From Pirellulaceae bacterium (GTDB lineage Bacteria; Planctomycetota; Planctomycetia; Pirellulales; Pirellulaceae), in contig JANQOL010000444.1 of the NCBI GenBank assembly GCA_028289675.1, positions 2,026-66,025 of the forward strand: a stretch of DNA of 64,000 nucleotides, given 5' to 3'. The notes below the pieces were generated by a model that saw only the letters and a program-made list of their open reading frames with translations, was not told the DNA's origin and did not search any database. The position numbers and the translations under genes were made by a program. Positions 13,451 to 61,350 of this stretch are shown here, piece by piece. How positions within the stretch are numbered: the first letter of the stretch is position 1; each line of letters opens with the position of its first letter.

Positions 13451-13809
13451 TTATCCGGCAAATCGCGCGGTTCGAGAAGCCCACCGGCCGACTGAACCAA
13501 GGCAAGTCAGAGTTTGAAATTGGACACGCATTGAGTTCATTCGCTGAACAGCACTTGTCACGATTTTCCCTATCAAGCCGTCCGAGCGCGATGCGACGAA
13601 TCCGCGCAAGTCGACGCCTTTAATTTGCCTAGCCAACTCCACTGGCAATTGCACGTTGGCCGGCCTGCGCCGTGAAACCTTCGGAGACAGCAATGCCAGC
13701 TTTCATCCGGAGTCCGCATCGATGTTCGCCGTCTGCGAGTGAAACCCTCAAGATTTAGAAAGCTTCAACACCGCGCGAAAACTTGGCCACTTTATCGCCA
13801 CGTGGCGCG

Positions 13810-13837
13810 TTGCTTCGACCAACGGGTGTGCGATAAT
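13810..13837 (+). promoter_or_regulatory. Candidate sigma70 promoter for the gene at 13901
   Basis: TTGCTT, 16-bp spacer ending in TGc, then GATAAT (extended -10). Confidence 0.35.
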
Positions 13838-13900
13838 GCGGGCGCGCAAGACGGCGGTCACGTGTTCCTTTTAACTGTAGCGAAGTAGGGAGTCCTTTCC

Positions 13901-14998: not shown

Positions 14999-15175
14999 TC
15001 ACTCGGAAATCCAATTCGCAGTAACAGTGCCGGGACCGGTCAACGCTCGCGGAGATCGGTCCCGTCTCGGTTTGGTCCCGGCGCGAGGTTCATCGGTCCC
15101 ACGCAACTGCCTCCAATCAATGACGCGGAACCGCCTGATCAAGCCATCGAACAGATCGATCGTGGGAGGACACTG

Positions 15176-35765: not shown

Positions 35766-35815
35766 GCTTTTCTCTCAAACTTGCTGTGGATGATGTTCCC
35801 GGCACCAACTCAATT

Positions 35816-41909: not shown

Positions 41910-42224
41910 GCGCAGTTGGCTTTGAGCGCCGCTACCTAGCATGCCATGTTCTCTTCATTGGCCATCCGTTCCTGGGCCATCCAGGGCTCCGTCCGTCGTG
42001 TCAGTCTTGCGCGGCGTCGATCTGGCGGCGCCTAGTTAGCGAACACCCTGTGGGGGTTTCTGTCACCGGTCGTAGCGGGACGATGTCTTCGTTCTGAGTT
42101 TCATTGACGAGATATCCACGGACGAGTTCCGAGGCCACGCTCATCGGCTGGCACCCATTTTCTTGGCTGCTGGCCGCCTCCAAGCTCCCGCTCAAGTCGA
42201 CTCAATCTTTTTCTTAGAATTTGT

Positions 42225-42253
42225 TTGACACGCTCCATACCACCTGCAATAAC
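42225..42253 (+). promoter_or_regulatory. Candidate sigma70 promoter for the four-gene cluster
   Basis: Perfect TTGACA, 17-bp spacer ending in TGc, then AATAAC (weak -10), in an AT-rich stretch about 150 bp before ATG 42401. Confidence 0.35.
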
Positions 42254-42400
42254 TACATACTTAGGGTGGTTCGATAATTTCGATATGGGTATTTATGGCG
42301 ATTTTTCGCGATACACACCGCTCGAAAGTGCTGGATTATCCAACTTAGCAACCTTTGGATGTGCCAAGGGTCAACTCATTTCCCGACTAGGAGCAGTCTC

Positions 42401-43054
42401 ATGTCAGTTGCCGAACTCGCTGTCGCCAAACCACGAACTCACGAAACCCACCTTCGTCCGACCAATGTCAGCGGACACGTCATTGGGCTCAGCTTCAACA
42501 CGCTGCCGGGCAACAATCCCAGCAAGTTCGCCAATTCGGTCTACATCTGGCAGAACTCAAACCAGATTCCCTGGGGGTCGAAACCACTGAACATGCAACA
42601 GGTGGGCACCAGCACTCCTGACGGAGACCTGCAGTTCAAGGACTTGGACGTGACAGTGAACAGCTACATCATCGGTTACGCGGTTGGCCCAGACGTGACA
42701 AACATCTGCGCTAGCTCGTTTGTGCCCAAGATCGGCGACACGAGCGACAAACCGGTGAATCAGTCTCTGTCGATCAGCGTCGTCAACATTGGCGCCAACT
42801 CACTGGCCATTGGTTACAACGCGCTTCAAGGCTACGCCCCATCAACCGCACAGAATTGGCTGGGCTTGTGGGAAAGTTCATCACCTTCTTACACGGTCGA
42901 ACCCCAGTGGAAAACCGAGCCCGACGGTGATTCTCCAACAGGTGTTGCCGCGTTCAATAACATCACCATCGTCCGCGGCGGGACGTATACCGTCGCCTAT
43001 TTCATGGGTCCCAAGCAAACGACGATGGCGGCCACGCTTACGTTTACCGTGTAA
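42401..43054 (+). CDS. Hypothetical protein A: tandem two-domain beta-sandwich protein
   Basis: AGGAG RBS; internal duplication (FNTLPGNNP...VYIWQ and YNALQGYAP...WLGLWE); paralog of the next gene. Confidence 0.8.
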   Translation: MSVAELAVAKPRTHETHLRPTNVSGHVIGLSFNTLPGNNPSKFANSVYIWQNSNQIPWGSKPLNMQQVGTSTPDGDLQFKDLDVTVNSYIIGYAVGPDVTNICASSFVPKIGDTSDKPVNQSLSISVVNIGANSLAIGYNALQGYAPSTAQNWLGLWESSSPSYTVEPQWKTEPDGDSPTGVAAFNNITIVRGGTYTVAYFMGPKQTTMAATLTFTV

Positions 43055-43222
43055 GCCCACCGTAGTGTTCCGCCTCGATCGGTAGCGAACAGCACTTTGG
43101 TGCTGTTCGCTCTTTCGGCTCCTCCCGGGTCCGTGCGTGAACGCCCAGCGCGGACCAACAGTTTGCGGGCTCAGCGCTCGCAACAGCAACTGCCACCCCC
43201 TGCCCGTCTGAGAGATCTAGCG

Positions 43223-43879
43223 GTGAGTGTGAACCAACCCTTTGCAGTTCTCAGTCGCACCAAATCGTTTTCGACGCACGTAACAGTCGATTATGTGACC
43301 GGTAAGGCCATCGGTGTTAGTTTCAAAACGGTTTCCGGCAACCGCCCCAAGACGTTCAACAACACATTGTTCTTATGGCAAAACCCCAACCAGATTCCTT
43401 GGGATGTCGAGCCGTTGCACCGTCAAAAGATTCTGTACGACGGTGGACCTGACGGTTCTACCAACATTCAAGACGTACACATTACATCGCAAAGCTACAT
43501 TATCGGCTACGCGGTGGGTCCGAGCGTATCCGACATTTGTGCTTCGGCCTATATTTCGGCCGAGAACAACATTGAACATCCTGAGACCACGATGTCTCTA
43601 ACGCTGAAGTTCGCCGGGCCCACTTCCTGCGCCGTGGACTTCACCACATTGCCCGGCTACCGACCGGAAGCCAACAGAAACTGGGCAGGCATCTGGAATA
43701 GCTCCTCCGCCTCTCATTGCGTGCCTCCCAAGTGGCGGACGGAGATTCACGGCAACTCCTCCAACGGCTTGGCCGCCTTCAACAACATCTCGTTGGAACG
43801 TGATGGAACTTACACCGTGGGTTACTTCATGAGTCCGAATCAAAGCAGCCTGGCTGCCACGTTAACGTTCACGGTTTAA
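43223..43879 (+). CDS. Hypothetical protein B: paralog of 42401-43054
   Basis: GTG 43223 gives MSVNQ..., aligning with MSVAE... of A. Shared WQN.NQIPW, SYIIGYAVGP, ICAS, AAFNNI and the terminal AATLTFTV. Confidence 0.8.
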   Translation: MSVNQPFAVLSRTKSFSTHVTVDYVTGKAIGVSFKTVSGNRPKTFNNTLFLWQNPNQIPWDVEPLHRQKILYDGGPDGSTNIQDVHITSQSYIIGYAVGPSVSDICASAYISAENNIEHPETTMSLTLKFAGPTSCAVDFTTLPGYRPEANRNWAGIWNSSSASHCVPPKWRTEIHGNSSNGLAAFNNISLERDGTYTVGYFMSPNQSSLAATLTFTV

Positions 43880-43908
43880 CTCGGCTGGCCTCAACGGAGG
43901 ATTTCCCA

Positions 43909-46900
43909 GTGGCTTTCTTCAACCAAAGTCCTTTCAGCAACCAGCTCTTTATGGGCTCTGAAGCTCAATCGGATCGGGGACAAGTATGGCTCGTCTTGCC
44001 CCGTGGGCACGGCGAACCGATATCGCTGGAACAGGCCCTGCACGACGATTCGCTACGAGCCAACTTTGCTTTTTCAGCGGCGCCGATCGTACTGGATGAC
44101 GCCGACGCCGCGAGTCAATTCGTGCAGACGATATTGAAGGTCGCCGGAACCGTGGCGGCAGCCCGCTCGATCCTGTGGCTGCGAGACTCGACCGATATTT
44201 CACCACCTACCGTGGCTCTGTTGGGAATCGCGCCGGACGGCACTTTCATCCAGGGAGGTCTGGGAGGCGGCGTCCTGATCGAGCAAATCTTGCAGTTCAA
44301 GATCCCCAATGGGACTCGCCTCGAGCTGGCGTCGGAGACGCAAGTCATCCTGAGCACCGTTCAGGGCAACAAGATCGGTCTCGCCTTCAACGGCGATGGA
44401 ACGCTGCGATCCACGGGCGCCGACCATGGGATGCTTGACTTCAGTGGTCCATACCGCGGCTGTGTGCGATACACCGACGAGATCCAACAACAGTCACTGC
44501 GTGAACAGTTGTTCTGGGGGTTTCAGTTTTCGATTCCAACCAAGCAGCCGGTACGCAGCGCCATCCATGAATATCTGCCAATCGCCGGCAGAGGCGATAG
44601 TTCCAACAACGGCGCCAGCCCAACTGATCAAGTCCAGTTCGCCGTCAGCATTGATCTGAGTGACCCTTTGAACGCTCAATGCCCCACAACGACCGATCGT
44701 ACAGCACTAACTTTTACGGGTACGACTCAGAAACAAAACGGACAACAGATACCCACTCGATTGGCTTCCTACTATCGCACGATCTATGGACACGCCATTG
44801 ATCTGCTGCCACTGGGGATTCACCAAGCAACCAGCAGTGAGATTCCGGCTCGGCTGGTTTTCGCGCTCGGTGAGCAAGTCAAAGATGGCACGCTGGCGTA
44901 CCACAGTTGTCCGGTTGGTGACTATGCCTTGCAAGTTGGCGGGCGGACCGGGCATTTTGATCTGCTGTGTGGATTGACCGGCACCGAATTCTTGGCCTTT
45001 CAAGCGGGGACCGATGCTGCATCTAGTGACCGCTTGCGCTTCGCAGCTCGTCAACCGGCGTTCGCGGCCAATTATCCATTCCCTGAAGCGTCACCAGTTG
45101 GCAAACCGCTGCAGTCTGGCGAGATGCTGCTCAAACCCAACTACTTAACCGCGTGGGGAACGGTGGTTCGACCGCCAGACAGCGGCACCAGAGGGCAGAT
45201 TCCTTACGTGGCCCAGCCCAAGGGCTCGTCGCTGTACGGTCGCGACGAACTGATCCATAGTTACAGCCCGCAGTTGTTTGGATTCAAAGACCCTAGCGTG
45301 GTCCTGCCCGATACCGATTTCACTTTTCCCATTCCGCCGTACGCCGGCGCCATCCCCAGCCAGGACGGCGTGGCCACTTTTAACAAGCAGCAAATCGAAG
45401 CCGTCGAGCGCGAGGTCCTAGGCCCCACTCGCCGGGATCTGATTGGAAAACAGAACCCAAGTCAAGCGGCTTCGAAAATGGAATGCCTGACTGGTGTCAC
45501 GACCAATCAGAGTCCGACCAACTCCACTACCCCGACCGGCCTGATCGCCACCGTTGACGGCGGCGGCCGGTTCACCAAGGTGCTGCTGGGTCAGAATCTG
45601 CATGGTCCGCAAGGCCAGACACGGCAGATGGCGTTTTGCCAGCTGCAACCCAAGCTGCAGCAGGCCATGCAGACCAACCAGTTGTTGCTGGTGGTCGCCA
45701 ATCCAACGGAACTGGGTGCCATGTCCGGTGGCGGTGACGGCACCTGTGACAGCAAGTCTCAGTTTTTCAACCAGATGAACATTGAGGACTGGTCTTTAGA
45801 AGCCGATGTGGGGCAAAACGCCTACAACGATTACCACAATGTCATGATCTTCAAGGGTCGCAAAGGACCGCTGTACGACCCAAAATATGCTGACCGCCAG
45901 GATGGATCTAAAGAGCCATCCAATCTGGTGTCCAATCCAAATCTATGGACGCAACGGGAGACATTTGCCTCTCCCAGCACGCAGGACGACCCGACACCCG
46001 ACCCAACGCAGCAGATCATTCTCTCGGGCTGGCTGCAAAAGTACTTTCAGGAAGCCAGTCAGCAAACCGGCAACGTCTACTTTGAGAAGTTCAACGCGAT
46101 TGCCAAAGATCCCAACTGGACCGGCATTCTTGTCTTGCGGATGAACATTGCTGAAATCCCCTCGGATCTGGCGGGCATCACTGCCGGCGTATCCGCGCCC
46201 GAACGGTTCAACGCACATCACTTCGGCATTGAAATCGGTCAAGTTCAAAACGACCCCGGAGCGCCACAGATCGAGCTGTCCGACTCCAGTTCCATGTTCG
46301 GTCTGATCTACTACGTCGATCCTGACTTCCAGCAGCCCGATGAGGGACAACCGGCCGAACCCATCGCCCCCGCTCCCGGCGCGATTTACGACTTTCGTCT
46401 ACTGACCTTGAAGGTCCTCTTTGAAAACACGGCTGTCAGCAAATTCGAAAGCCTGGCACAACTCACGCTCAACCGATTGTTTGACATGTCAGTCACCCAC
46501 ATGGGCTCCGGCGGCAATGGGTTCAATACGATCGTGCTCCAAGGAGGTTATCAGAACAACAATGGAAACCCCGTATACAGCCTTAGTTCGACAGCCGACA
46601 ACACGTTCTACTTCGACAGTAACATCTTCAACAAGATCGAGATCGATAGTGCGCAGCTGACCACGCGCAGCTCCGGCTATTTGTTCGATTTAGACAAGTC
46701 GTTTTCTGACGCACTAAACCAGGGCGGCGAAGTACCGCCCGAACTGCGCGACGTTTTTCAGACGCATCACATTTCGTTGTCCGAGGCTGCCCGCATCAAA
46801 CCGCTGGAATCCAATCGTCTGTGGGACATCGACGACGGCGATTCCCAGTATCAAATCGAGAGTGATTTGAAGTTGCAGGTGTACGGTGACGTCGTTTCGT

Positions 46901-47760
46901 GGTTTGGCTTGAGCGGCTTTTTGGACTTTCAAGTCGTTGCTCAAGGTGTTGAACTGGATAAGTCGACCGAATTCTATCCGTTCGACATTCTGTCTTTCGG
47001 CAACAACATCCAGCCCAGGAGCAAACCCACCGATCCGATCGTCATGGAAGATCAATTGCGCAAGGGCCTTCGGTTCTCCGGACTGGGAATCAGCATGAGG
47101 TTCCCGAAGGCGGCACCTACCACTCGCGAGCTGTCGTTTGTGGTCGACGAGATGCGTTTTGATACCGTTACGAGTACACCTCGGGTAGGCAGCCTATTTC
47201 GCGACTTTGCACTGGAGCTGGAAGGGCTCGATCACGGCACGCCGGATGTCTCACCACCCAAGGATTATCTGGGCGTGATTACCGACGCTCGTTTGAACGG
47301 TGTCGAGGGAAGCCCTTGGTACGGACTGCGGTATCGTTTGAACATGGGTTCACCGGGCGAGCTGGCGGGGAAAATCGATCTAACCTCGCAACTGTTTACC
47401 GGCTGGTCATCCAACAGCCGGGGCAACAGCGGCTACCAGGCGCAGTTGGGACTACAGCTGCCCGGAACAGGTGGCGGTGCCAAGCTGATCAGTCTGCAAA
47501 CCGTGCTCAAACTGTCGATTGGTTTGCTGCGGCTCACCCGTGCCAAAACTCAAAGCGGCGACGAGTCCTTCATGTTGATGCTGACGGACATCGCCCTCAA
47601 GCTTCTCGGACTGCTGAAAATTCCTCCGGGCGGATCGACGCTGTTCTACCTGTTTGGCAATCCGCAGGGCGACGGCAAAGCCAAGGGACTGGGTTGGTAC
47701 GCCATGTACAACCAGGATCAGGCCAAGCAAGAACCGGCCCCCGAACTCATTGAAAAATGA
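43909..47760 (+). CDS. Large uncharacterised beta-rich protein (1283 aa)
   Basis: GGAGG RBS with GTG start, 29 bp after gene B; long open frame; beta-rich C-terminal third ending LFGNP...LGWYAMY. Confidence 0.85.
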   Translation: MAFFNQSPFSNQLFMGSEAQSDRGQVWLVLPRGHGEPISLEQALHDDSLRANFAFSAAPIVLDDADAASQFVQTILKVAGTVAAARSILWLRDSTDISPPTVALLGIAPDGTFIQGGLGGGVLIEQILQFKIPNGTRLELASETQVILSTVQGNKIGLAFNGDGTLRSTGADHGMLDFSGPYRGCVRYTDEIQQQSLREQLFWGFQFSIPTKQPVRSAIHEYLPIAGRGDSSNNGASPTDQVQFAVSIDLSDPLNAQCPTTTDRTALTFTGTTQKQNGQQIPTRLASYYRTIYGHAIDLLPLGIHQATSSEIPARLVFALGEQVKDGTLAYHSCPVGDYALQVGGRTGHFDLLCGLTGTEFLAFQAGTDAASSDRLRFAARQPAFAANYPFPEASPVGKPLQSGEMLLKPNYLTAWGTVVRPPDSGTRGQIPYVAQPKGSSLYGRDELIHSYSPQLFGFKDPSVVLPDTDFTFPIPPYAGAIPSQDGVATFNKQQIEAVEREVLGPTRRDLIGKQNPSQAASKMECLTGVTTNQSPTNSTTPTGLIATVDGGGRFTKVLLGQNLHGPQGQTRQMAFCQLQPKLQQAMQTNQLLLVVANPTELGAMSGGGDGTCDSKSQFFNQMNIEDWSLEADVGQNAYNDYHNVMIFKGRKGPLYDPKYADRQDGSKEPSNLVSNPNLWTQRETFASPSTQDDPTPDPTQQIILSGWLQKYFQEASQQTGNVYFEKFNAIAKDPNWTGILVLRMNIAEIPSDLAGITAGVSAPERFNAHHFGIEIGQVQNDPGAPQIELSDSSSMFGLIYYVDPDFQQPDEGQPAEPIAPAPGAIYDFRLLTLKVLFENTAVSKFESLAQLTLNRLFDMSVTHMGSGGNGFNTIVLQGGYQNNNGNPVYSLSSTADNTFYFDSNIFNKIEIDSAQLTTRSSGYLFDLDKSFSDALNQGGEVPPELRDVFQTHHISLSEAARIKPLESNRLWDIDDGDSQYQIESDLKLQVYGDVVSWFGLSGFLDFQVVAQGVELDKSTEFYPFDILSFGNNIQPRSKPTDPIVMEDQLRKGLRFSGLGISMRFPKAAPTTRELSFVVDEMRFDTVTSTPRVGSLFRDFALELEGLDHGTPDVSPPKDYLGVITDARLNGVEGSPWYGLRYRLNMGSPGELAGKIDLTSQLFTGWSSNSRGNSGYQAQLGLQLPGTGGGAKLISLQTVLKLSIGLLRLTRAKTQSGDESFMLMLTDIALKLLGLLKIPPGGSTLFYLFGNPQGDGKAKGLGWYAMYNQDQAKQEPAPELIEK

Positions 47761-47909
47761 GTCTGGGAGCGCCTCATTTGACTGGGACTGGCCGTTGTCA
47801 CCGCCAGCTGGCCAAGCAACGGCAGACTTGCCACCACAAACAGACACTAGCATCGCTGAAGCGACCCCAATGACCCTCGCAAGCCCATTAGGGCACCGGA
47901 AGGCTGACC

Positions 47910-53900: not shown

Positions 53901-56900
53901 GGAATCGTGGATTGGATCAACGCCGAAGGTCAACTCTCCGGCGCCGATGCCTACACACTGGACAGCCTGTTCGCCGCCAATTTGACTCATGAACTGGCGC
54001 CAGGAAAACCGCTGACCATCGGAACCCGCGTACCGGTCGAAGACGACAATACGTCATTTGAGAATTTCGCGAGCAACACGTTGAATCAGTCGCTAACGGC
54101 TGTTGAGGTAGCCACATTGAATGCGGCGAACCAGTCCATTCTGCGGCCTGGCGTGATCATTCAATACCGATCGACTCCCGAATCCGCCCCTGTCACGTAC
54201 ACCACGCGGGCCGGTGACTCGCTGCTAAGTATTGCCGGCTACTTCAAAGTCCGGTTGGCAAGTGGATTGTTGGTGCGTTCGAACGTGCTGCGAGTCGACC
54301 AACTGCTGACTGCTGGATCGTCACTAGCAACCGGGGGTGTCACCTACCAAGTCCTTGCCAGCGACACGTTCGATTCCATCGCCAAAGCAGCCATCTATCA
54401 GTCCGCTTTTACCGCGCAGCAGTTGGCGCAGCAAAACGCGGGCGCCAGCATTCTAAGGACGGGTGCATCCGTGAGCCTGTCTGGCAAGTCGCACACGGTT
54501 CAACCCGCCGAGTGCCTCGGCGACGTCGCCAACGCGTTGGGTGTGACCATCGAGGCGTTGACCGCTGACAGCAAACTGCTGAGTCAAGCCGATCTGATGT
54601 TACCCGTTGCCAAACTGTCGCTACCACAATTCAACTTACAGACGACCACAGGCCAAACTTTCGAATCCATCGCAACTCAACTGGCCGTGTCGAATGAAAT
54701 CTTCGGCGCATCGGCTGCCAATGGAAAAATCGAGTCTCTATTCGTCACTGAGAGTTCCGGTGGCCAGGCCACTCCTAACTTGGATGTGCCCCATTTGACT
54801 CAATTCAAGGTGAAACAACTGCTGGCAGAAGCCCAACGCACTCAGGTGATGCAGCACCTGTCGGGCATGGCTTCTCGATATTATCTGCATGGCATGCGCT
54901 TACCCACGGCAAATGCCGACCAGCCGATCATTGACGCGCAACATCCGGGTATGTGGGTTGGCGACGATTTGCAACTGCCACCGCATGCGGGACTGTACGC
55001 TCTGACAGGCCAGCAGTTTGAAATTCCTGACATTGGAACGGAGCCGTTTACAGCAACCTTATCGGCAGGACCTCAATGGCTATCTTTCGAGAAGTACGTT
55101 CAGAAAGACAAACAATGGGAGTGGGAACCCGTTCCGGAACTGACTGTTTCCGTGTCGCCGGGTTCGGATGAATCTAAGTTTATTCAACAGGTCACCCAGT
55201 TCGCGCAAAGTCAGCCACTGAATACTCAGTTGACCGAGCTGGGCCCCGAACCGATGTACACCAGCCAGTTGGCGACCTACCCGTTAACGTCGTCGCTGAC
55301 TTGGCAGGCTGCGTCCTCGATTCGGTTGAGCTACGGCAAAGATCCTGGTGGTCCCCCGGAACTGCGGCTCTGGCGTCTGCCCGACACGCTGATCAACTTG
55401 CCAGACCCTGCACACCGCGCCCTTGATCCGCGCTTTGGTCTGAGAATTGGACGCTACGACGAGGCCACAGGTGGCACGGTCAAGAGTGACGTCAGCTACT
55501 ACAGCTGGGCATCGACCATCGAATTCACGGTGAAACGTGTGCCTGAGACCACTGCCGCAACGAAGTCGACCTACGAAATCATGGGTGCTGATGGCAACGC
55601 AGCGACAACTCTGGAGCGGCTGCTGGCCGCGGTGGGCGATCAAGATGCGTTGATCGACCAATTGATCGTTAGCTATCCGCCGGCCGACGCCAAGAACGGA
55701 GCCGGTATCCAAACCGGTGCCGTAGATGGCATCACACTGGGAATCGCGCAGGTCAATCTGTCCACGGACACGCGGCCACCTGCTGCGATGGACATCGAGA
55801 TGTTTGCGGAACAGGCAGAACAAGGGCGCGGATTGCTGAACACCAAGACCGAGTTCCTGCGTTGGCTGTGGGAAGCCAGCATCACTCGTTCCGGTGGCTT
55901 CTATTTGTATTATCACGATTCAGAGCAGAAGAGCGGCCTGCCAGATCGGGTCTTCAATGACAAAGGGGAAGCTCAACTGACACTGGTGGTCCTGTATCCG
56001 CGACCTGAAGCTGCGAACGCACAGAATGTCATCGGCAACTACATGAACGCAGCCGTGACCGGAGAAAGTATCGACCCAGCCCACTCGGTGGTCTTCACCG
56101 AAGCCGACCCCGCCCAAGATCCGCCGCCGCAGGTCAAATTGACGGACACCGACACCTTGGCGGACATAGCGTATCGATACTATTCCAACGTCGGGGACCT
56201 GGTCGAGTTGCCCACCAACACGGAACTGAAGCTAGCTGACAAAGTCGAGGTGCACATCGATCATGGCCTGTACTTTGTCACTCCCAACGCACCCGGTGGT
56301 GCGTTGAGCCAGATCATCGATCACTTTGGCATCACGTTGGATCAACTCAAGCAGGCCAATCCGAAGCGGACCGATTGGCCGGATACTTTGCCGACAGGTA
56401 CAGCGTTGCGGCTACCCAAGCTGACAGTTGTGGTGCAGGACAGCAGCAAAGGCGGCAACACGCTGGCGAGTTTGGCGGACTACTTTGGCGTCAACCTCAC
56501 TTCCTTGGCCGCGCAAAACCAACACATGCCGGGACTGTTGGGTGCCGACCAACTGATGACCATCAGCGGCGGACCGCGACTTCGCACCGCCACGGTGCCT
56601 CCTGGAGTCGAAGCCTTGGCGGCGGCCCGCCCGGTGCCAGCGGAGTTGACGACCAACCTGAGCTCGCCGGAGTCTCCTGAGGTCTTCCTGCAAAACATGT
56701 ACAGCTTGCTCAACTACCGAGTCGAAGCCAATGACGACTTTGCGGGCAGCAAGATTGGTCTCCCAGCTGGTCCGACCACCACACCGGAGGATCCAGACAG
56801 CCACGACAAGATTCGCGCGCCCAGAACACTAACAGCTGGAGTGGACCAATGGCACTACAAACAGGCGCTGCCGTACACCAAATTCGTCAAGCATAGCCTG

Positions 56901-59900
56901 ACCGACGAAGCCGACCTACCCGCCATTTCGACAAGTCCGTACATCGGCGTCAATTCCGTGCTGCAAATTGACTTCGATTGGCAGGACTACTTTGGCAATA
57001 CCCTCGTTACCGATCTGTCCAGTCCCAAGGCCGGCGACCGCGGACCGTTCAACGGCGCCCCCATGCTGACCGGGTATACCGACGCGATGTTGGGTCTGAG
57101 TCAGTGGCCGTCCATTACTTCTGCGTGGCAGTTGGCGCCCAAACTCGGCGCAGATCCGCAACTGGAAATGCTGCTCAGCTTCGACAACAGCCACTACCAA
57201 GGACTCTTGCAGGCGACCGCCACCGATGAAAAGTCGGTTGCATTGAAGTTCACGCAACCTTTGGATCCAAATACAGCCAACAACCCCAGCAACTTTGCGA
57301 TAGAAGGTGTGGACGTCAGTCAAGCCACTCTTTCAGCGGATGGCTTGAGTGTGACCCTGTCGGTGTCTGGGCTGACCGATGGCAATCGCTACTCTGTCGC
57401 CGTGCGAAATCTGCTCACCACAAAACAACAGTCCGTCGATGGACAGGCCGCATTCAGCTACCCGAATGATCCCGCCAACCAGTCGTCGACCGTTCAGCAA
57501 AACGCGGTTCGAGACTTGCGGGTCCTGCGACGTCTCTACTATCAGTTGACCGACCCCAACGGAATCTCGTTTGAGATCCAGTCCAGTTTGTTGCGAGGCG
57601 ATGACGGAAAACCTGGCACGTTGCCGGTTCAGCCGGGCCCTTTGCTGGACTGGCTGTTTAACGGTACCGTCGATGCGACCGGCATCTACGCGTTCATCAA
57701 GGATCGATCCCAGTTCGGCACACAGACCGAAGCACCTCCTGCGGATCTGATGATTTCCAATAGCATCACCGCGGATCAGCTAAATCCGTCTCAGTTGTTC
57801 GAATTATCGCTGTCTTTTACTATGAAACGCACCGGCGGAATTTCGCTGGGAGACTTGGAAACTACTCCCGGCATCCGGCAAGTGACGACTCGCGTATCGG
57901 CAATGACATCTCACTTGGACAGCGGTGACAGCACATTGGGCCTCAAGACGTTTGCCGAAAACTTTGAGGCAGCTCTCTCCCAACCTCAGACCCTTCAAAT
58001 GAAAGTCGCCACTGGAACGAACCGGCATCGCGTCAGCTCGGGCGGGCAGAGCGATACGGTGTGGGCCGTGCGTTTGGGCGAACGTAACGACCAACATCAA
58101 TGTGTTCAGGAAGACGCCATCTGCATTTCAGTGGACGAACAACAAGAACCTACCTTGTTCGCGCCGCGCCCAATTTCCAACACGTTGGAAAGCGGCCATG
58201 GCGTTCCGATCTACGACTACACTTCCGGTCAGGGTCTGAGTCCGACACCCTCGCGCAATGTCGATTTTATCGATATCGACATGGATAGCTGGGGTCGTCA
58301 GTTCTTAGGTGATTTCGACAGTCTGCTATCGCCCAAATTTACATCCACCATTCAGCTAGTTGACAAATATCAAAACGCTGAGTTTCTCCAAGACATTCTT
58401 GATCAAAAGAAGAAGTTGGCCGGAATTCTGAAACTGTGGATGATTCCGCTTTTCGCCGACGAGCACACTGATCCCACTCATGCGCGAGAGGCATTCTATC
58501 AGCAGCTGCTGTCTCGGCTGAGCAACGCGTACACCACGCGGGCGACCATCCAGCGAGCCATGAATGTGCGGGCCAGCGCCGACCAACCTGGGTCGGCTAC
58601 GGCGGTACCCGCGAAGACGATGGCCCGAAAAACCGCGTCCGAATCGCTCTTATTCAATGCGGCAACAACTACCATCGACCAACTCCGGCAGATCCAAGTG
58701 CGCTTCAACCAGCCTGTCGATGCCACCACCGGTGGCGCGGTTTCCAACTATGTCCTGACCGGAGGACTAACCGTGACGGAAGCCAGTGTTCCGACCGGCA
58801 GCAGTACCGTATTCCTGACGATATCCGGCGACGCCACGCCGCGCACAACTCAGTTAACCGTTGGTTCCGCGGTGAAATCCGCCCAAGGCGACAGCTTGCA
58901 GGGCCCAGTTCAACGCACAGTGTTTATCGCACCCCGCTTGTATGGCAACGTCACCGAACGCGAACCGCTGTTCGACTCGGCCACTACGACGTCCGGCCAG
59001 CTGAAGCAAGTTGTGTTGAAGTTCAATTTCAGCCTGGATCCAGACTCGGCGAAGTCCGTCGAAAACTACCAACTTTCAAATTCCGCCAAAGTGGTCAGGG
59101 CGACTTTGAACTCGACGCAAACCGAAGTGCAACTGGAACTGGATTCGGAAGCCGAACTGGACAAAACGACGATCACTGTCGGTGAATTGAAAGACACGCT
59201 CAATCGTGGCATTCTGACGCCTCGCACGCGGACGATTACGTCGTCTTCAAAGATTATCGAGGCCAAATCCGCGATCAGCCTTTCCTCTCCAAAATTGAAC
59301 TTGGTCGACGAGCAAGGCCAGCCTCTGACGTTCTTGTTGTCTTCTCCCGGACTGGTACGCGGCGAAGGCAACGAGGTTGTACCGTATGTATCGTTGGATG
59401 TCGAATACCGCGGGGCCAATATCGAACACCAGATTGGTGCCGTACCCGGTATCAAAGACTATGCGGCGTCCAGCTGGCTGAGCTTCGTCATTCCCGACCA
59501 ACAAGGACCACTGTCTGTCGAATTGGGACAATTCACCGTTCCCATGGTTCTGCGATCGTTTCCGGCCAGTGCGTCGCTAAGTGACCAGAATGGGCAGGCC
59601 AGCTTTCCGAATAGCGAACAGCTAAGCCAGCTGACACGTTGGGACTATGATCTGACCTACGCGCTTCCTTACCATTACCCGCAAGATCGCGTCCACGCAT
59701 CTGTCGAGTTCAACATCGGCGAACGGGTCCAAATGTTGGCGGGAATCGAGGATGCCTTCAATCAGCTTGCTCAATTTGTCACGGTGATGCCCAAAGTTCA
59801 AAAAGATTTTGATCAGTACTTGGGCACCATTGACGCGACAACCGCTCCAGATGCCGAAGAAGTCGCCAAGGCCGCCGTAGCGCTGGATGCATTCTTGAAG

Positions 59901-60866
59901 ATGGTTAAGGACATCACGCAGGCCGCCGAGAACAACGGATTGATCCGAGCAAGCGCTTATTTGCCACGACAGGGAGATGCAAGCTTGACCTACACTTTCA
60001 GCGTCCAGGAAGGTGTCGCGGTGATCGACGGCGTCGACGCGCTGACCATCACTGTCTTCGGCAAGCCACCGGCCGGTATCGGTGATCCTGAAGTCTATGT
60101 GGACCCGAAACACTACGAGATGCAGCGGCTGACGGCGAATTGCGAGGGTGATTACTGCTTCTGGTATCGTTCTCGAAAAGACCAGAAACCACTCAGCGCT
60201 TCCGCAGGTCAAGCGATTCAAGACCGGATGGTACGCCTTCCGAACATGGATGTACTGCAACGCCAGGATGCGTGGTCCACAGTCTATCTGAAGCGAAACC
60301 AAGAGCTGATTCCCGGGAAACCGACGGCCGAACCGTTCGTGTATACGACGTCCAAAGTGCAATTCAAGAACCCGCTATTGCCGACGTTGGACGTGGATCA
60401 GGTCATCCCCATAGCCAACTTGAACCACACCAAACCTCACGTGCGCTCGCTGCGTGAACAGTTGCAAACCTTGTTTGACACGCTGCTCAAAGACAATGTG
60501 GAAGACAGCTTGCTCATTCAGGTCGAGTCCACGTATGAGTACGACGTGACTTCGCATCTTTCGGCCATCCCACTACCAGTATTTATGCAAGCTCCTCTGA
60601 TGGTTAACGTCAAGGACTCCGCCACGGCCGGATCCGGCAGTGTGACTCTAGCGGAGACGCTGGACAGCTGGGCAGGCGCGATTGAACTGTGGTTCAAAAA
60701 CCATGCTCCACGACCGGTGGGCGAGCCCGGCGATCTGTATTTTGATCTCAGCCTGATGTCCAATCTCACCACGCAGCCAATGCCTCTGTTGCGGCTAAGG
60801 CGATTGCGTCTGGAACTAAGCTCCGTCCAACCTCCACTGACGCAAACCGCGATGGCAATGGTCTAG
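47910..60866 (+). CDS. Giant 4318-aa multidomain protein: putative GT-B glycosyltransferase + beta-rich region + LysM-like repeats + Ig-like domains
   Basis: 12.96-kb open frame with GGAAGG RBS. LysM-like YTTRAGDSLLSIA, YQVLASDTFDSIA, GITLDQLKQANP; Ig-like F.QP.D...A....N(F/Y) three times; N-terminal FGHQ and EG...A...GLP motifs. Confidence 0.9.
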   Translation: MLEELLAKLKDNSSKSWDEDILHGRKDIGKLLAAQPEIRIFVDGSANFGHQASTVLIMRRLVQDLGYSKLLTAVVTSGGEKQLTKLVPGYTEGNLDPIDFYGAQARFIPRNTFEEHADKYPYVLLGFTGGADEDSDYTGVVRSYLFLRLQPYLWPPKESKYIRRQLEYTFPGHEEDDPHRIELETVLEPASDKAGPKLKYRAYHQPVPRFDEIPWDTYEKKGPEQQRKHVTNALVLVKNLGTHFLLPSYALRPGGQTQKDPSNLWAQLVISVLQAQTMGYPKGPAVLVNFDDQVTDDVWTQLEALLKGGPSTFEKQMQAFLQKVPPKIVELQEQASKANPEERGEIEKSIKELQTKQASYEQYMQAYKERGKYLQTLAAEKRFLPVLRVPDPTLIQSALSKVDANQVLLINLGGVPPEIYHYIFSLAKLPSIFEGAATAGQAINTGLPYLHLRHTQLAKTDVVLYPSTLASGNNYSDVAGYCQVAANAITEGIDDKVLKRPPDQCMAAALKTATFIQEAYQSESKIHRYFDEVRQFYSRPTNGILNVTLAVMNGVYQENEGKFNPKTPMLLAAEDSPLETLYKCMTEHTTPPPQSQLSLIPTCLNEGAIASFYQALLPGNDLTIDTATITPTRDDKNQLTKITVSGKTSSFGLNMDVPLLEFTDANGSLSTLGRFTSQETWQLGGIPWIGIEDAGFEINLTNGTTPTAGAILGRIKNTDLEMRVNLPPTDNKWLISGTVAKDGDASIAQVYEMAGGINLIASLPPGLKTLAGFELQQFQISHDFSTGSIEFTRFIVGTQTPWELIPEINLSIQSVTLDAVIQKPGSLKNRKLEMDVTGKFTLGGGTIQVSTHIPGFQVQGGLTEGTIRLDDILTKFLPGVSIDLKTEITTFEFNVDPTAKSYSITTGLKSDWKIGDIFTITGIDFHVENGGGETSGSVTGNTVFMPQSTNIGLSVSASYDATEKGWTFSGHNTNPIEISKLLSGDPFNFNTDSQDKKQIDKLALSLTTGDKSWTFEGSISDWKIDFLDLLIKKASLKAGYNGPKNQALLLPPLRQSNAAVLVPLVDANSLIEPASGELPAGTQPKGNYFANIDADLEWLGVNLNTWLKFSTDKGPSWGVTIPDLKLSGSVSKNSQKQWVGTLKFPDDVTVGFLIEHMVSWITGSKFGLEAPWDFLNSINLSALELVFNFSTKQVSFKVNIGPIDLGFARIDGINVSYERGNADPAKNGVQVSLAGSFPWNIGDDKVGDTGNLGPWNAAEPGAAPAPPGQGNKYFDIRMLAMGQHVTLPCFTDPDTNTVQKAIACMRNLPQPPDPGKPTIPPVQFDSQSSWLIGADFGILKIGDSKSANGKPKKPGRPSLPTKSDYQPTECLAMAETKNAPGYVFNMQVVFNDPSIYGLRIALAGDAAKIFKGLEFQIMYQQVSPTVGVYRSEITLPDIMRHLSVGAYSVTLPVFGIEIYTNGDFQVDIGFPWDEDFSRSFSIEGIIAPGIPVMGSAGFHFGKLSSASTNRVPQATNGTFNPVIVFGFGLQVGFGKSVHYGILSAGFSLTVVGIIEGVLGKWNPYPDGGTGTPRLGNNGLAESNSQIQGAYYFWLRGSVGVIGKLYGTVDFAIIKADVNVEIKLLLQMTYETYVSITISVIASVNVSVSVKINLGLFKVSVSFSFSLKLKETFTIDNHGDAPWKVGGHSQKQLLRAPADRRLRVHRALEPMILLSLTDGPNWSRLSAPTQPTPLTSWLTTALTVAHDEWKTDSQKPADQRPCYVAMLMLDSVAAPQSDKKTAALKASGAEADSSFELLAKMVLRWMVAALQSKPYTPDQIDDLVVTETQLRYLTENVLVSSDDRPTPIPEEAIESFLSAQFKLNVRQAPDQDNTGQEPHTTYFPMAPDIKLHVPAYGNQHEYNYTFAQYNAIDDSGLSFLRSYFDELAVQVEHEMAADRDDARPMALGDQSYSMAQWVMTDYFLLLARQMVQAARDGLRDFKFPIEDSSDPNHPDTPTGIVDWINAEGQLSGADAYTLDSLFAANLTHELAPGKPLTIGTRVPVEDDNTSFENFASNTLNQSLTAVEVATLNAANQSILRPGVIIQYRSTPESAPVTYTTRAGDSLLSIAGYFKVRLASGLLVRSNVLRVDQLLTAGSSLATGGVTYQVLASDTFDSIAKAAIYQSAFTAQQLAQQNAGASILRTGASVSLSGKSHTVQPAECLGDVANALGVTIEALTADSKLLSQADLMLPVAKLSLPQFNLQTTTGQTFESIATQLAVSNEIFGASAANGKIESLFVTESSGGQATPNLDVPHLTQFKVKQLLAEAQRTQVMQHLSGMASRYYLHGMRLPTANADQPIIDAQHPGMWVGDDLQLPPHAGLYALTGQQFEIPDIGTEPFTATLSAGPQWLSFEKYVQKDKQWEWEPVPELTVSVSPGSDESKFIQQVTQFAQSQPLNTQLTELGPEPMYTSQLATYPLTSSLTWQAASSIRLSYGKDPGGPPELRLWRLPDTLINLPDPAHRALDPRFGLRIGRYDEATGGTVKSDVSYYSWASTIEFTVKRVPETTAATKSTYEIMGADGNAATTLERLLAAVGDQDALIDQLIVSYPPADAKNGAGIQTGAVDGITLGIAQVNLSTDTRPPAAMDIEMFAEQAEQGRGLLNTKTEFLRWLWEASITRSGGFYLYYHDSEQKSGLPDRVFNDKGEAQLTLVVLYPRPEAANAQNVIGNYMNAAVTGESIDPAHSVVFTEADPAQDPPPQVKLTDTDTLADIAYRYYSNVGDLVELPTNTELKLADKVEVHIDHGLYFVTPNAPGGALSQIIDHFGITLDQLKQANPKRTDWPDTLPTGTALRLPKLTVVVQDSSKGGNTLASLADYFGVNLTSLAAQNQHMPGLLGADQLMTISGGPRLRTATVPPGVEALAAARPVPAELTTNLSSPESPEVFLQNMYSLLNYRVEANDDFAGSKIGLPAGPTTTPEDPDSHDKIRAPRTLTAGVDQWHYKQALPYTKFVKHSLTDEADLPAISTSPYIGVNSVLQIDFDWQDYFGNTLVTDLSSPKAGDRGPFNGAPMLTGYTDAMLGLSQWPSITSAWQLAPKLGADPQLEMLLSFDNSHYQGLLQATATDEKSVALKFTQPLDPNTANNPSNFAIEGVDVSQATLSADGLSVTLSVSGLTDGNRYSVAVRNLLTTKQQSVDGQAAFSYPNDPANQSSTVQQNAVRDLRVLRRLYYQLTDPNGISFEIQSSLLRGDDGKPGTLPVQPGPLLDWLFNGTVDATGIYAFIKDRSQFGTQTEAPPADLMISNSITADQLNPSQLFELSLSFTMKRTGGISLGDLETTPGIRQVTTRVSAMTSHLDSGDSTLGLKTFAENFEAALSQPQTLQMKVATGTNRHRVSSGGQSDTVWAVRLGERNDQHQCVQEDAICISVDEQQEPTLFAPRPISNTLESGHGVPIYDYTSGQGLSPTPSRNVDFIDIDMDSWGRQFLGDFDSLLSPKFTSTIQLVDKYQNAEFLQDILDQKKKLAGILKLWMIPLFADEHTDPTHAREAFYQQLLSRLSNAYTTRATIQRAMNVRASADQPGSATAVPAKTMARKTASESLLFNAATTTIDQLRQIQVRFNQPVDATTGGAVSNYVLTGGLTVTEASVPTGSSTVFLTISGDATPRTTQLTVGSAVKSAQGDSLQGPVQRTVFIAPRLYGNVTEREPLFDSATTTSGQLKQVVLKFNFSLDPDSAKSVENYQLSNSAKVVRATLNSTQTEVQLELDSEAELDKTTITVGELKDTLNRGILTPRTRTITSSSKIIEAKSAISLSSPKLNLVDEQGQPLTFLLSSPGLVRGEGNEVVPYVSLDVEYRGANIEHQIGAVPGIKDYAASSWLSFVIPDQQGPLSVELGQFTVPMVLRSFPASASLSDQNGQASFPNSEQLSQLTRWDYDLTYALPYHYPQDRVHASVEFNIGERVQMLAGIEDAFNQLAQFVTVMPKVQKDFDQYLGTIDATTAPDAEEVAKAAVALDAFLKMVKDITQAAENNGLIRASAYLPRQGDASLTYTFSVQEGVAVIDGVDALTITVFGKPPAGIGDPEVYVDPKHYEMQRLTANCEGDYCFWYRSRKDQKPLSASAGQAIQDRMVRLPNMDVLQRQDAWSTVYLKRNQELIPGKPTAEPFVYTTSKVQFKNPLLPTLDVDQVIPIANLNHTKPHVRSLREQLQTLFDTLLKDNVEDSLLIQVESTYEYDVTSHLSAIPLPVFMQAPLMVNVKDSATAGSGSVTLAETLDSWAGAIELWFKNHAPRPVGEPGDLYFDLSLMSNLTTQPMPLLRLRRLRLELSSVQPPLTQTAMAMV

Positions 60867-61350
60867 ATTGCTGTCGCTGGACGCCATGGACGTCTCGTTC
60901 TTCAGGACCGCTGCTGATCTATCTGATCTGGATCGGAAGCACCTAGAGCATTTTGCTTTTGAAGTGGCCCGTTTTCGACGGAATAAGCAACCACCAGCTT
61001 TGATGACGCAGGCCATCTGTCCGTGCGACTCGCACTAGCCGGTTTGTCAAATCGATTTGGAGTACCATTTGTTGATGGGCGATGACCGCCAAGAGCGGAG
61101 TTCGTTCAGATGGTGCGTCTGCACACGTGTATGGCTATGAAGATCGTTTGTGCCGCGCGCTATATCGGTGTGCACCCTGCACTCGCGAATTGGCACGACC
61201 GGTAATGGCCCCTACCAAACAGAATGCTCTTCTAGAGCGGTTTACATTTTCGTGTGACCTTGTTTCGGCAGATTCAGGCCGTGTTTTCGTTGATGAAGCA
61301 AGCCGAATGCCCGTGCGGCTCGCACTAGCTCAAAACTCCTGGAGACAGAG

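What the first reader, a model, noticed from the sequence alone, without database searches (positions are those of the whole stretch)
42401..60866. Candidate undescribed four-gene giant-protein system (A, B, 1283 aa, 4318 aa)
Seen: 18.5 kb of co-directional genes (gaps 168, 29 and 149 bp), each with an RBS-like sequence, inserted between hppA and a DUF1080 gene. None has a Sec/Tat/lipoprotein signal or obvious TM anchor, yet the giant carries typically extracellular modules (LysM-like, Ig-like) behind an enzyme-like N-terminal domain. No T1SS, T5SS, T6SS, phage-tail or RHS/YD genes or motifs are visible in the window. Known: large clostridial toxins use an N-terminal glycosyltransferase / delivery / receptor-binding layout, and Tc and RHS toxins use beta-sheet shells built from partner proteins. 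Inference: a novel toxin or effector delivery (or glycan-remodelling) assembly. The 1283-aa protein and the giant's core would form the conserved chassis, LysM/Ig would target peptidoglycan or chitin, the N-terminal domain would be a swappable payload, and A/B would be accessory, receptor-binding or immunity subunits.
Basis: partly seen in the sequence, partly recalled or inferred. Interest (0 to 1): 0.92.

Follow-up and report, generated by a model that had tools for sequence, protein, structure and literature searches.

The report
Uncharacterised giant LysM-protein enzyme cassette
The four genes are real and are one copy of a rare, horizontally spread gene cassette (small accessory proteins, a 1,200-residue partner, an exchangeable enzyme and a 4,000-residue cell-wall-binding giant) found in over a dozen bacterial phyla and some archaea, which nobody has characterised and whose purpose (probably inter-cell conflict) is still inferred.

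Summary
Observation confirmed. The window holds four co-directional ORFs of 217, 218, 1283 and 4318 aa. They lie in a Planctomycetota MAG from a coral metagenome, between H+-pyrophosphatase and a DUF1080-type gene.

The cassette recurs. The 1283-aa partner (C) is followed by a LysM giant in 82 of 87 related loci, and the other five are cut by contig ends. Hosts span many bacterial phyla, Methanothrix archaea and nine plasmids. No phage genome carries it. It was not found in 40 relatives of this genome.

The giant's first ~590 residues fold confidently as a GT-B glycosyltransferase closest to EarP (Z 16.6). Elsewhere this module is a separate gene between C and the giant. In other loci it is replaced by an EEP phosphoesterase, a metallo-beta-lactamase-fold protein or a DUF4135 enzyme, sometimes in tandem arrays.

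The giant's most conserved part (residues ~1380-1680) models as long amphipathic beta-hairpins shaped like membrane beta-barrels.

No signal peptides, secretion, lysis or immunity genes were seen, and nothing matches a characterised system or paper.

My best reading is a self-contained conflict module that docks on a glycan wall, breaches a membrane and deploys an enzyme (0.35). Abortive-infection defence (0.25) and a self-modified envelope protein (0.15) remain open.

This scan met the same family before on other DNA (e1-700980, e1-4100419).

The parts
41910..42400 (+). About 490-bp intergenic region between the end of hppA and gene A; probable promoter region of the operon
   Evidence: Sequence read: lower G+C, and AGGAG 8 nt before the ATG at 42401. 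The promoter scan found no strong sigma-70 match here, so the promoter is inferred only.
42401..43054 (+). Gene A: 217-aa leaderless accessory protein made of two repeats of a ~100-aa Trp-containing module; no known family
   Evidence: A-like genes (1-3 copies) lie upstream of C in 32 related loci, and also downstream of the giant in Burkholderia.
43223..43879 (+). Gene B: paralog of A (45% identity); the ORF is open from 43097, and the likely start is GTG 43223
43909..47760 (+). Gene C: 1283-aa partner protein with no Pfam, NCBIfam or PDB relative; the C-terminal ~280 aa are the most conserved part and hold its only hydrophobic segment (aa 1220-1238)
   Evidence: At least 99 species genomes carry a relative.
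47910..60866 (+). Gene D: 4318-aa leaderless giant
47910..49679 (+). D aa 1-590: GT-B glycosyltransferase module, EarP-like by fold, with a helical insert at aa ~312-376; this is the exchangeable enzyme slot
   Evidence: Model pLDDT 88.6. EarP 6j7k gives Z 16.6, rmsd 4.2, 344 of 385 residues aligned, against Z 12 or less for other GT-B enzymes; Foldseek probability 1.0. Conserved R39, G49-x-H-Q, G129, Q150-P151, E434-G435, Y465. The module is free-standing or replaced by other enzymes elsewhere.
49680..51506 (+). D aa ~591-1199: beta-rich region of moderate conservation (24-42% identity); not folded here
51507..53249 (+). D aa 1200-1780: the most conserved core (62-75% identity at aa 1400-1700). 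An all-beta model with six 18-23-residue strictly amphipathic strands (aa 1517-1674), shaped like large membrane beta-barrels
   Evidence: Alignment A4 of 87 sequences. Model pLDDT 84.2. In the wide VIA search the top 50 hits are all membrane beta-barrels, with the best Z 12.7, rmsd 5.9 over 234 residues. The shape search of the ESM Atlas gives TM 0.39-0.42 to TonB-dependent receptors and MtrB. Foldseek finds nothing significant. The hydrophobic alternation is conserved.
54195..54578 (+). D aa ~2096-2223: first LysM cluster
   Evidence: phmmer against PDB sequences. A profile of 23 giants hits only LysM proteins, led by Ecp6 at 9e-8.
56304..56417 (+). D aa 2799-2836: Pfam LysM match, within a second LysM cluster
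   Evidence: LysM is strong in relatives, including the archaeal ones: P0059 at 6e-35 and Methanothrix at 9e-28.
58662..58913 (+). D aa 3585-3668: bacterial Ig-like (Big_5) domain in an indel-rich, repeated region (aa ~3530-3890)
59307..60866 (+). D aa ~3800-4318: conserved C-terminal region (31-50% identity) of unknown fold

Best explanation
The stretch is one complete copy of a self-contained, horizontally mobile cassette. It has four kinds of part: small two-repeat accessory proteins (A, B); a ~1,200-aa partner (C); one exchangeable enzyme, here an EarP-like GT-B glycosyltransferase fused to the giant's N-terminus; and a 3,000-4,300-aa giant (D).

Shown: conserved gene order across phyla; the exchangeable enzyme slot; the GT-B fold; genuine LysM and Ig-like modules; an extremely conserved core of long amphipathic beta-hairpins; and no signal peptides or helper genes.

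Inferred mechanism: it is an inter-cell conflict module that needs no host secretion system. C and the giant form the chassis. After release from the producer, LysM and Ig modules, and perhaps A and B, hold the complex on a GlcNAc-containing wall (peptidoglycan or chitin). The amphipathic hairpin core inserts into the membrane as a beta-barrel-type pore. The enzyme then acts in the cytoplasm of the other cell, the only place where a glycosyltransferase finds nucleotide-sugar donors, probably glycosylating a protein as EarP does.
For: - Synteny: small gene(s), then C, then (enzyme), then giant, in loci from Bacteroidota, Pseudomonadota, Actinomycetota, Bacillota, Acidobacteriota, Eremiobacterota, Spirochaetota, Cyanobacteriota and Methanotrichaceae.
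- Self-contained: in complete replicons the flanks are unrelated housekeeping or regulatory genes. Across 32 loci, 64 upstream genes hit 174 Pfam families, none in more than 3 loci.
- Mobility: the cassette was not found in 24 same-genus and 16 same-order genomes. It sits on 9 plasmids, two of them predicted conjugative, among them pBRH02 of a fungal endosymbiont, and in an integrase/transposase island in B. pseudomallei.
- Enzyme slot: GT-B fused, free or in four tandem copies; EEP; MBL-fold in three tandem copies; DUF4135.
- GT-B fold with conserved candidate active-site residues.
- Core: highest conservation; long strands with conserved alternation (mean hydropathy 3.8 against -1.4); closest shapes are all membrane beta-barrels; it contains the giant's only hydrophobic segments.
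- LysM is retained strongly even in Methanothrix, whose own wall has no murein (established knowledge). This favours binding to another organism's wall. The best LysM match of the giant profile is the chitin-binding fungal effector Ecp6.
Against: - Export is not shown. None of 62 giants or 13 C proteins has a signal-like N-terminus.
- No secretion, holin or endolysin gene recurs beside the cassette.
- No small immunity-type ORF follows the enzymes, and the small-protein families do not track enzyme type. That is awkward for an antibacterial toxin.
- The GT-B module occurs only in this cassette, unlike shared polymorphic-toxin domains.
- The barrel-like shape rests on one AlphaFold model, with Foldseek E of 0.03 or worse and TM below 0.5. 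Amphipathic strands also fit a soluble beta-sandwich or solenoid.
- Some neighbours are defence genes: Wadjet, IetA, MADS, TRIP13, CHAT, and ThsB-TIR with a caspase-like gene.
- Hosts include strict anaerobes and methanogens, so no single target group is obvious.
Confidence: 0.35

Rival explanations
1. An intracellular abortive-infection or other anti-invader defence system. The leaderless giant and C stay in the producer's cytoplasm as sensor and scaffold. On infection, the amphipathic hairpin core inserts into the cell's own membrane and/or the exchangeable enzyme (glycosyltransferase, phosphoesterase, MBL-fold hydrolase) is unleashed on host or phage molecules.
For: - All parts are leaderless.
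- No immunity gene is needed or seen.
- A conserved core with a swappable enzymatic effector is typical of defence systems (established knowledge).
- Patchy horizontal spread, with copies on plasmids and islands.
- Defence genes lie among the neighbours in about 4-5 of 32 loci: JetA/JetC, IetA, mad3/mad8 and TRIP13, and ThsB_TIR with Peptidase_C14.
- Four copies lie in IMG/VR provirus-type contigs.
Against: - No PADLOC model matches any part.
- No NTPase, nuclease-sensor or nucleic-acid-binding domain was detected in about 5,800 aa of chassis.
- LysM and Ig-like modules are normally extracytoplasmic, and LysM is kept even in murein-free Methanothrix.
- Tandem arrays of three or four enzyme paralogs are unusual for defence effectors.
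- In complete replicons and in this window the flanks are ordinary metabolic genes, not defence islands.
- 18 kb is far larger than any known defence system (my own knowledge).
Confidence: 0.25
2. A cell-envelope or surface structure (giant adhesin, wall-tethered fibre or envelope-spanning scaffold) whose neighbouring enzyme acts in cis. The GT-B would glycosylate the giant or C in the cytoplasm before an unconventional export, as HMW1C does for the HMW1 adhesin or EarP does for EF-P. The other slot enzymes would be alternative maturation enzymes.
For: - The set beta-barrel-like core plus LysM plus Ig-like domains is the module set of inverse autotransporters such as intimin and invasin (established knowledge).
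- The GT-B is dedicated to this cassette and always sits next to or fused with the giant.
- EarP-type enzymes glycosylate proteins (titles of the PDB entries).
- DUF4135 belongs to lanthipeptide-type Ser/Thr-modifying enzymes (Pfam description).
Against: - No signal peptide or sorting signal.
- The cassette occurs unchanged in diderms, monoderms and archaea, which share no envelope architecture.
- EEP and MBL-fold hydrolases are not obvious maturation enzymes.
- Rarity and patchiness fit an accessory conflict trait better than an envelope component.
Confidence: 0.15
3. A cargo-holding intracellular assembly. In this reading C and the giant build a large cytoplasmic body or shell that sequesters the neighbouring enzyme, much as encapsulins and other nanocompartments hold a cargo enzyme encoded beside or fused to the shell gene. 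The assembly has no role in conflict.
For: The enzyme is encoded beside the structural genes or fused to them and varies in type. All parts are leaderless.
Against: LysM and Ig modules have no role in such a body. There is no similarity to any known shell protein. The distribution is that of a mobile accessory island.
Confidence: 0.05

Closest known systems
EarP (GT104), the bacterial protein-arginine rhamnosyltransferase of EF-P
   Same: The giant's first ~590 residues adopt the same two-Rossmann GT-B fold. EarP structures are the best matches, with Z 14.7-16.6 and ~345 of ~380 residues aligned, clearly above all other GT-B enzymes at Z 12 or less. ESM features also point to EarP at 0.88.
   Different: Sequence identity is 10-14%. 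Pfam EarP (PF10093) does not match. The module carries a ~65-aa helical insert, and the conserved N-terminal loop reads G-x-G-H-Q rather than EarP's Asp-containing loop (the latter from my memory). It is fused to or encoded beside a giant structural protein, and its acceptor is unknown.
Tc (ABC) toxin complexes and large clostridial toxins
   Same: Both are leaderless, very large multi-part toxins that combine receptor-binding Ig-like or repeat modules, a membrane-inserting translocation part and an exchangeable enzyme; LCTs carry an N-terminal glycosyltransferase (established knowledge). The layout here is analogous.
   Different: There is no sequence or fold similarity: no RHS, SpvB, VRP1, TcdA_TcdB_pore or Peptidase_C80 match, and no CROPs. 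The enzyme is GT-B, not GT-A. The candidate membrane part is beta-hairpin, not alpha-helical. Delivery is not shown.
Polymorphic toxin systems (Zhang et al. 2012, PMC3482391)
   Same: A conserved large chassis with variable enzymatic modules, horizontal spread and tandem arrays of alternative modules.
   Different: The variable module is N-terminal or a separate upstream gene rather than a C-terminal tip. There are no adjacent immunity genes, no recognised trafficking domain, and the GT-B module is not shared with other systems.
Inverse autotransporters (intimin/invasin, type Ve secretion) and outer-membrane beta-barrels
   Same: The module set matches: LysM, a beta-barrel-shaped region and Ig-like domains. 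The core model's nearest shapes are porins, TonB-dependent receptors, BamA/TamA and MtrB.
   Different: There is no signal peptide. Foldseek similarity is not significant. The module order differs, the protein is ten times larger, and it occurs in monoderms and archaea, which have no outer membrane.
Pfam DUF6603 (PF20248) giant-protein cassettes (catalogued, uncharacterised)
   Same: ESM language-model features place the giant's core next to DUF6603 clusters (0.86) and C weakly so (0.79). Earlier notes of this scan describe DUF6603 cassettes that also carry exchangeable hydrolases.
   Different: None of 87 core segments matches PF20248 even at E 1. No DUF6603 cluster appears in the shape search. 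No paper mentions DUF6603.

Membership tests
EarP / GT104 protein-arginine rhamnosyltransferases | GT-B fold with EarP-specific topology | tested here: met
   Model pLDDT 88.6. EarP entries rank 1-10, Z 14.7-16.6, rmsd 4.2-5.0, ~345 residues aligned; the next GT-B scores Z 12.1.
EarP / GT104 protein-arginine rhamnosyltransferases | Match to the family profile (Pfam PF10093) | tested here: not met
   No Pfam hit on aa 1-600 at E 0.1 or better, nor on free-standing relatives.
EarP / GT104 protein-arginine rhamnosyltransferases | Catalytic Asp/Glu residues and a dTDP-rhamnose donor; EF-P Arg as acceptor | not testable with these tools
   Conserved R39, G49, H50/Q51, E434-G435 and Y465 suggest an active enzyme. 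Residue equivalence, donor and acceptor need a structure superposition and assays.
Tc (ABC) toxin complexes | TcA-type pore/shell domains and a TcB/TcC RHS-repeat cocoon with a C-terminal hypervariable toxin | tested here: not met
   No VRP1, TcdA_TcdB_pore, SpvB or RHS match in A-D. No PDB sequence match.
Large clostridial glucosylating toxins | N-terminal GT-A glucosyltransferase, C80 cysteine protease, helical delivery domain, CROP repeats | tested here: not met
   The enzyme is GT-B. No Peptidase_C80, pore or CROP hits.
Polymorphic toxin systems | Variable C-terminal toxin tip followed by a cognate immunity gene | tested here: not met
   The variable enzyme is N-terminal or upstream of the giant. 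No small ORF lies between enzyme and giant. Small-protein families do not co-vary with enzyme type.
Inverse autotransporters (type Ve) | Sec signal peptide and the IAT beta-barrel domain | tested here: not met
   No signal-like N-terminus in 62 giants. No IAT_beta Pfam hit.
Pfam DUF6603 (PF20248) | Match to the family HMM | tested here: not met
   0 of 87 core segments match at E 1 or better. No match in the window's genome at E 10 or better.
Pfam DUF6603 (PF20248) | Remote (fold-level) relationship | tested here: inconclusive
   ESM features score 0.86, which is a lead only. The atlas shape search lists outer-membrane barrels, not DUF6603.
Known anti-phage defence systems (PADLOC 2.0) | Match of any component to a defence-system model | tested here: not met
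   No hit for A, B or D; one chance-level hit for C at E 0.036. This does not exclude an undescribed defence system.
LysM-domain proteins | Bona fide LysM repeats | tested here: met
   Pfam LysM scores 33.4 bits against a cut-off of 20.9. The family profile hits Ecp6 and bacterial LysM proteins. LysM is strong in relatives at 6e-35 and 9e-28.

The most novel reading that the evidence does not exclude
A new class of secretion-system-independent protein-delivery machine. In this reading a leaderless giant, with its 1,200-aa partner and lectin-like accessory proteins, docks by LysM and Ig modules on the glycan wall of another cell. It then forms a beta-barrel pore from its ultra-conserved amphipathic hairpins and passes an exchangeable enzyme into that cell. 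The enzyme here is an EarP-like protein glycosyltransferase, a toxin activity not described before.
Probability: 0.2. Interest if true: 0.9.

Novelty: categorically new. Interest (0 to 1): 0.7.

Why it matters
If the cassette is a delivery or pore-forming machine, it would be a new way for bacteria and archaea to deploy enzymes without any of the known secretion systems, built from proteins with no known relatives. It would also add an EarP-type protein glycosyltransferase to the repertoire of conflict enzymes.

If it is a defence system, it would be by far the largest known and the first to use LysM modules.

In either case about 5,800 residues of strongly conserved protein are unexplained. 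They occur in Burkholderia (including B. pseudomallei), Pseudomonas chlororaphis, Azospirillum, Aquimarina, Pseudovibrio, Nonomuraea, a fungal endosymbiont's conjugative plasmid and Methanothrix. Several carriers are cultivable and genetically tractable, so the question can be tested directly.

Tried and rejected
- Only two folds were allowed, so C, A/B and about 70% of the giant were not folded.
- No RNA holder was listed for the window. The only run holding it is a coral metagenome that may be its source.
- The empty-site comparison failed. In four same-genus genomes the 12 kb after hppA hold neither the DUF1080 gene nor the beta-lactamase gene, so the insertion borders could not be set.
- hhalign found no homology between C and the giant.
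- hhalign found none between the GT-B module and the other slot enzymes.
- hhalign found none between A and the small upstream families U1 and U2 of the distant clade.
- The DUF6603 lead was not confirmed by HMM or by shape.
- PDB sequence searches with the EEP, MBL-fold and DUF4135 slot enzymes gave nothing usable.
- PADLOC, PHROGs and NCBIfam gave only chance-level or LysM-related hits.
- There was no match in 50,697 phage genomes, so a phage structural role was dropped.
- Literature searches (LysM giant, DUF6603, EarP toxin, rhizoxinica LysM, BURPS1106A_3460) found no description of the cassette.
- The Trinickia 493-aa gene between C and the giant is not a GT-B relative by BLASTP.
Full report
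**1.

The + strand carries four consecutive ORFs: 42359-43054, 43097-43879, 43909-47760 (1283 aa) and 47910-60866 (4318 aa).
Its 217-aa product is the gene as called in the public protein collection.
With these starts the gaps are 168, 29 and 149 bp.
- A and B are paralogs (45% identity, E 7e-68) and each is internally duplicated.
- Pfam and NCBIfam recognise only LysM (aa 2799-2836) and Big_5 (aa 3585-3668) in the giant, and nothing in A, B or C.
- None of the four has a signal-like N-terminus. The only hydrophobic stretches are aa 1220-1238 of C and aa 1540-1559 and 1633-1651 of the giant.
- The flanks are housekeeping genes. Upstream lie H+-pyrophosphatase, a squalene/phytoene synthase and an amine oxidase. 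Downstream lie a 3-keto-disaccharide hydrolase (DUF1080 family) and a beta-lactamase-family gene.
- The cassette has lower G+C (0.51-0.58) than the DNA upstream (0.58-0.61).

The genome is an 84%-complete MAG. Proteins of a same-genus relative are named Planctomycetota in public records. The only sequencing run that holds the stretch is a coral metagenome.

**2. It is a conserved, mobile cassette**

C has only 13 relatives by word-seeded search of 5.8 billion proteins. A pattern scan of one genome per species found 99 carriers among 185,579, which is a lower bound because it depends on one peptide pattern.

The carriers named in the 80 listed loci are:
- Bacteroidota: Aquimarina, Chitinophagaceae, Flavivirga.
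- Alpha-, Beta- and Gammaproteobacteria: Pseudovibrio, Roseibium, Bradyrhizobium, Agrobacterium vitis, Burkholderia, Janthinobacterium, Pseudomonas chlororaphis, Pectobacterium.
- Actinomycetota: Nonomuraea, Actinoplanes, Lentzea.
- Bacillota: Clostridium magnum, the closest to this copy at 47%.
- Acidobacteriota, Eremiobacterota, Spirochaetales, Cyanobacteria and two Methanotrichaceae archaeal MAGs.

The giant has 63 relatives of 2,400-5,100 aa, among them a B. pseudomallei cluster of 2,012 sequences. All are named only 'LysM domain-containing' or 'hypothetical'.

In 82 of 87 loci C is followed by the giant, and the other five are cut by contig ends. A-like genes in 1-3 copies precede C in 32 loci; in Burkholderia one more follows the giant.

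Evidence for horizontal movement:
- C was not found in 24 other species of the window's genus or in 16 other genera of its order.
- Nine of 72,556 plasmids carry it. These include a predicted conjugative plasmid of the fungal endosymbiont Mycetohabitans rhizoxinica and megaplasmids of Azospirillum B510 and Burkholderia sp. FERM BP-3421.
- In B. pseudomallei it lies in an integrase/transposase island.
- None of 50,697 phage genomes carries it. Four IMG/VR contigs do.

The neighbours are heterogeneous. 64 upstream genes from 32 loci hit 174 Pfam families, and none occurs in more than three loci. No helper gene is therefore conserved. No secretion, lysis or immunity gene recurs.

**3. The enzyme slot**

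Along an alignment of 23 giants, the N-terminal 600 residues are the least conserved part (20-25% identity). Residues 1400-1700 are the most conserved (62-75%).

The N-terminal module varies in form:
- It is fused to the giant in the close clade.
- It is a free-standing gene of about 500 aa between C and the giant in at least nine loci.
- It is present in four tandem copies in one locus.

A profile of the module finds 1,020 cluster representatives among 1.84 billion proteins. In the best 150 it is always at residues 1-600, either in giants or as stand-alone proteins of 450-600 aa. Two stand-alone examples again sit between a C-like gene and a LysM giant. The module is therefore specific to this cassette.

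In the more distant clade the same slot holds unrelated enzymes (hhalign finds no similarity to the GT-B module):
- an endonuclease/exonuclease/phosphatase-family protein, the commonest;
- metallo-beta-lactamase-fold proteins, three in tandem in one locus;
- a DUF4135 (lanthipeptide-dehydratase-type) protein in an archaeal locus;
- proteins of no known family.

The small upstream proteins of that clade belong to two further families unrelated to A. One of them occurs with three different enzyme types. The small proteins therefore follow the chassis and not the enzyme, which argues against their being cognate immunity proteins.

**4. Folds**

With a 45-sequence alignment, residues 1-600 fold at pLDDT 88.6 as a GT-B glycosyltransferase.
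- All ten best structural matches are EarP, the EF-P arginine rhamnosyltransferase (Z 14.7-16.6, rmsd 4.2-5.0, about 345 of 380 residues). The next GT-B scores Z 12.1.
- Foldseek agrees (probability 1.0, E 6e-5).
- Residues conserved over 20%-identical sequences suggest an active enzyme: R39, G49-x-H-Q, G129, Q150-P151, E434-G435 and Y465.
- Pfam EarP does not match, so I call it EarP-like by fold and not a family member.

With an 87-sequence alignment, residues 1200-1780 fold at pLDDT 84.2 as an all-beta structure whose last six strands are 18-23 residues long.
- These strands show strict, family-wide alternation of hydrophobic and Ser/Thr/Asn/Lys residues.
- An exhaustive structural comparison returns only membrane beta-barrels in its top 50: porins, BamA/TamA, BcsC, VDAC and Tom40. 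The best has Z 12.7, rmsd 5.9 over 234 residues.
- The Atlas shape search returns TonB-dependent receptors and MtrB at TM about 0.4.
- Foldseek finds nothing significant. Its insignificant top rows are OmpT, perforin-2 and gasdermin pore forms.

I read this as a long-hairpin amphipathic sheet of barrel-like shape, and as suggestive rather than proven membrane insertion.

Profiles of C and of the whole giant find no solved relative apart from LysM proteins, with the chitin-binding effector Ecp6 best at 9e-8. Language-model features hint at DUF6603 for the core (0.86). Neither the Pfam HMM on 87 segments nor the shape search confirms this.

**5. Mechanism**

The shown facts are:
- a self-sufficient chassis of C plus the giant;
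- an exchangeable enzyme;
- glycan-binding LysM modules kept even in murein-free Methanothrix;
- Ig-like domains;
- an ultra-conserved amphipathic hairpin core holding the giant's only hydrophobic segments;
- no leader peptides and no helper genes.

A glycosyltransferase needs nucleotide sugars, so the enzyme must work in a cytoplasm, either another cell's or the producer's own.

I favour, at 0.35, an inter-cell conflict module that binds a GlcNAc-containing wall, breaches the membrane with the hairpin core and lets the enzyme act inside. It would be released by an unknown route. This works like AB, Tc or large clostridial toxins without being related to them.

Against this reading:
- export is unproven;
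- there are no immunity genes;
- the enzyme family is private to the cassette.

The main rival, at 0.25, is an abortive-infection type defence. It explains the leaderless proteins, the missing immunity genes and the occasional defence-gene neighbours. It does not explain LysM and Ig modules, the tandem enzyme arrays or the ordinary flanks in complete replicons.

A self-modified envelope or adhesin structure (0.15) and a cargo-holding cytoplasmic assembly (0.05) remain possible.

**6. Comparison and novelty**

No part other than LysM, Ig and the GT-B fold resembles anything characterised, and seven literature searches found no description. The membership tests for Tc toxins, large clostridial toxins, polymorphic toxin systems, inverse autotransporters, DUF6603 and PADLOC systems all fail on tested defining features.

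Earlier notes of this scan describe the same family on other DNA (e1-700980, e1-4100419). They report that a later check priced the 'export apparatus' reading at 9 in 100. I treated that as a lead. My own tests reproduce its grounds: no export signals, no secretion, lysis or immunity genes, and some defence neighbours.

- the EarP-like fold;
- the cassette-specific nature of the GT-B module;
- further enzyme types in the slot;
- the barrel-like amphipathic core;
- LysM in the archaeal copies;
- carriage on plasmids, including predicted conjugative ones.

**7. Verdict**

This is a real, complete copy of an uncharacterised, widely but thinly spread cassette. The function is inferred, not shown.

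Noticed in passing
L061:12787-19110 and L072:12639-17253: A Microscillaceae MAG carries four tandem paralogs of the free-standing GT-B module between C and the giant. A Flavobacteriales genome carries three tandem metallo-beta-lactamase-fold genes in the same slot.
   Followed up: partly
L104 (NC_014723.1, nt 389-15968): On the predicted conjugative plasmid pBRH02 of the fungal endosymbiont Mycetohabitans rhizoxinica, the cassette opens the record. Here the giant is split into a 1,114-aa gene and a 2,614-aa LysM gene. Priestia sp. LL-8 (L002) and one IMG/VR contig (L092) have the giant as two genes of about 1,620 aa and no enzyme gene in the slot.
   Followed up: no
L004:2427-8162 and L005:185-2834: Upstream of one metagenomic copy lie a ThsB-TIR gene with a caspase-like (Peptidase_C14) gene, and a lasso-peptide-type set (PqqD, transglutaminase-like and asparagine-synthase-like genes).
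   Followed up: no
L026 and L034 (Methanothrix / Methanotrichaceae MAGs): Two archaeal MAGs from different studies carry the cassette with strong LysM domains (9e-28), although these archaea have no murein. One has a DUF4135 (lanthipeptide-dehydratase-type) enzyme in the slot. Whether the contigs are correctly binned was not checked.
   Followed up: partly
This is consistent with a lineage-variable insert.
   Followed up: partly
window 35786-39233: A squalene/phytoene synthase gene lies next to a flavin amine-oxidase-type (phytoene-desaturase-like) gene just upstream of hppA. This is probably a carotenoid or hopanoid-precursor gene pair and is unrelated to the finding.
   Followed up: no
window 61082-61393: A 103-aa ORF with no family match sits between the giant's stop and the DUF1080 gene and overlaps that gene's start. 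It is probably not a gene, and it is not A-like.
   Followed up: partly
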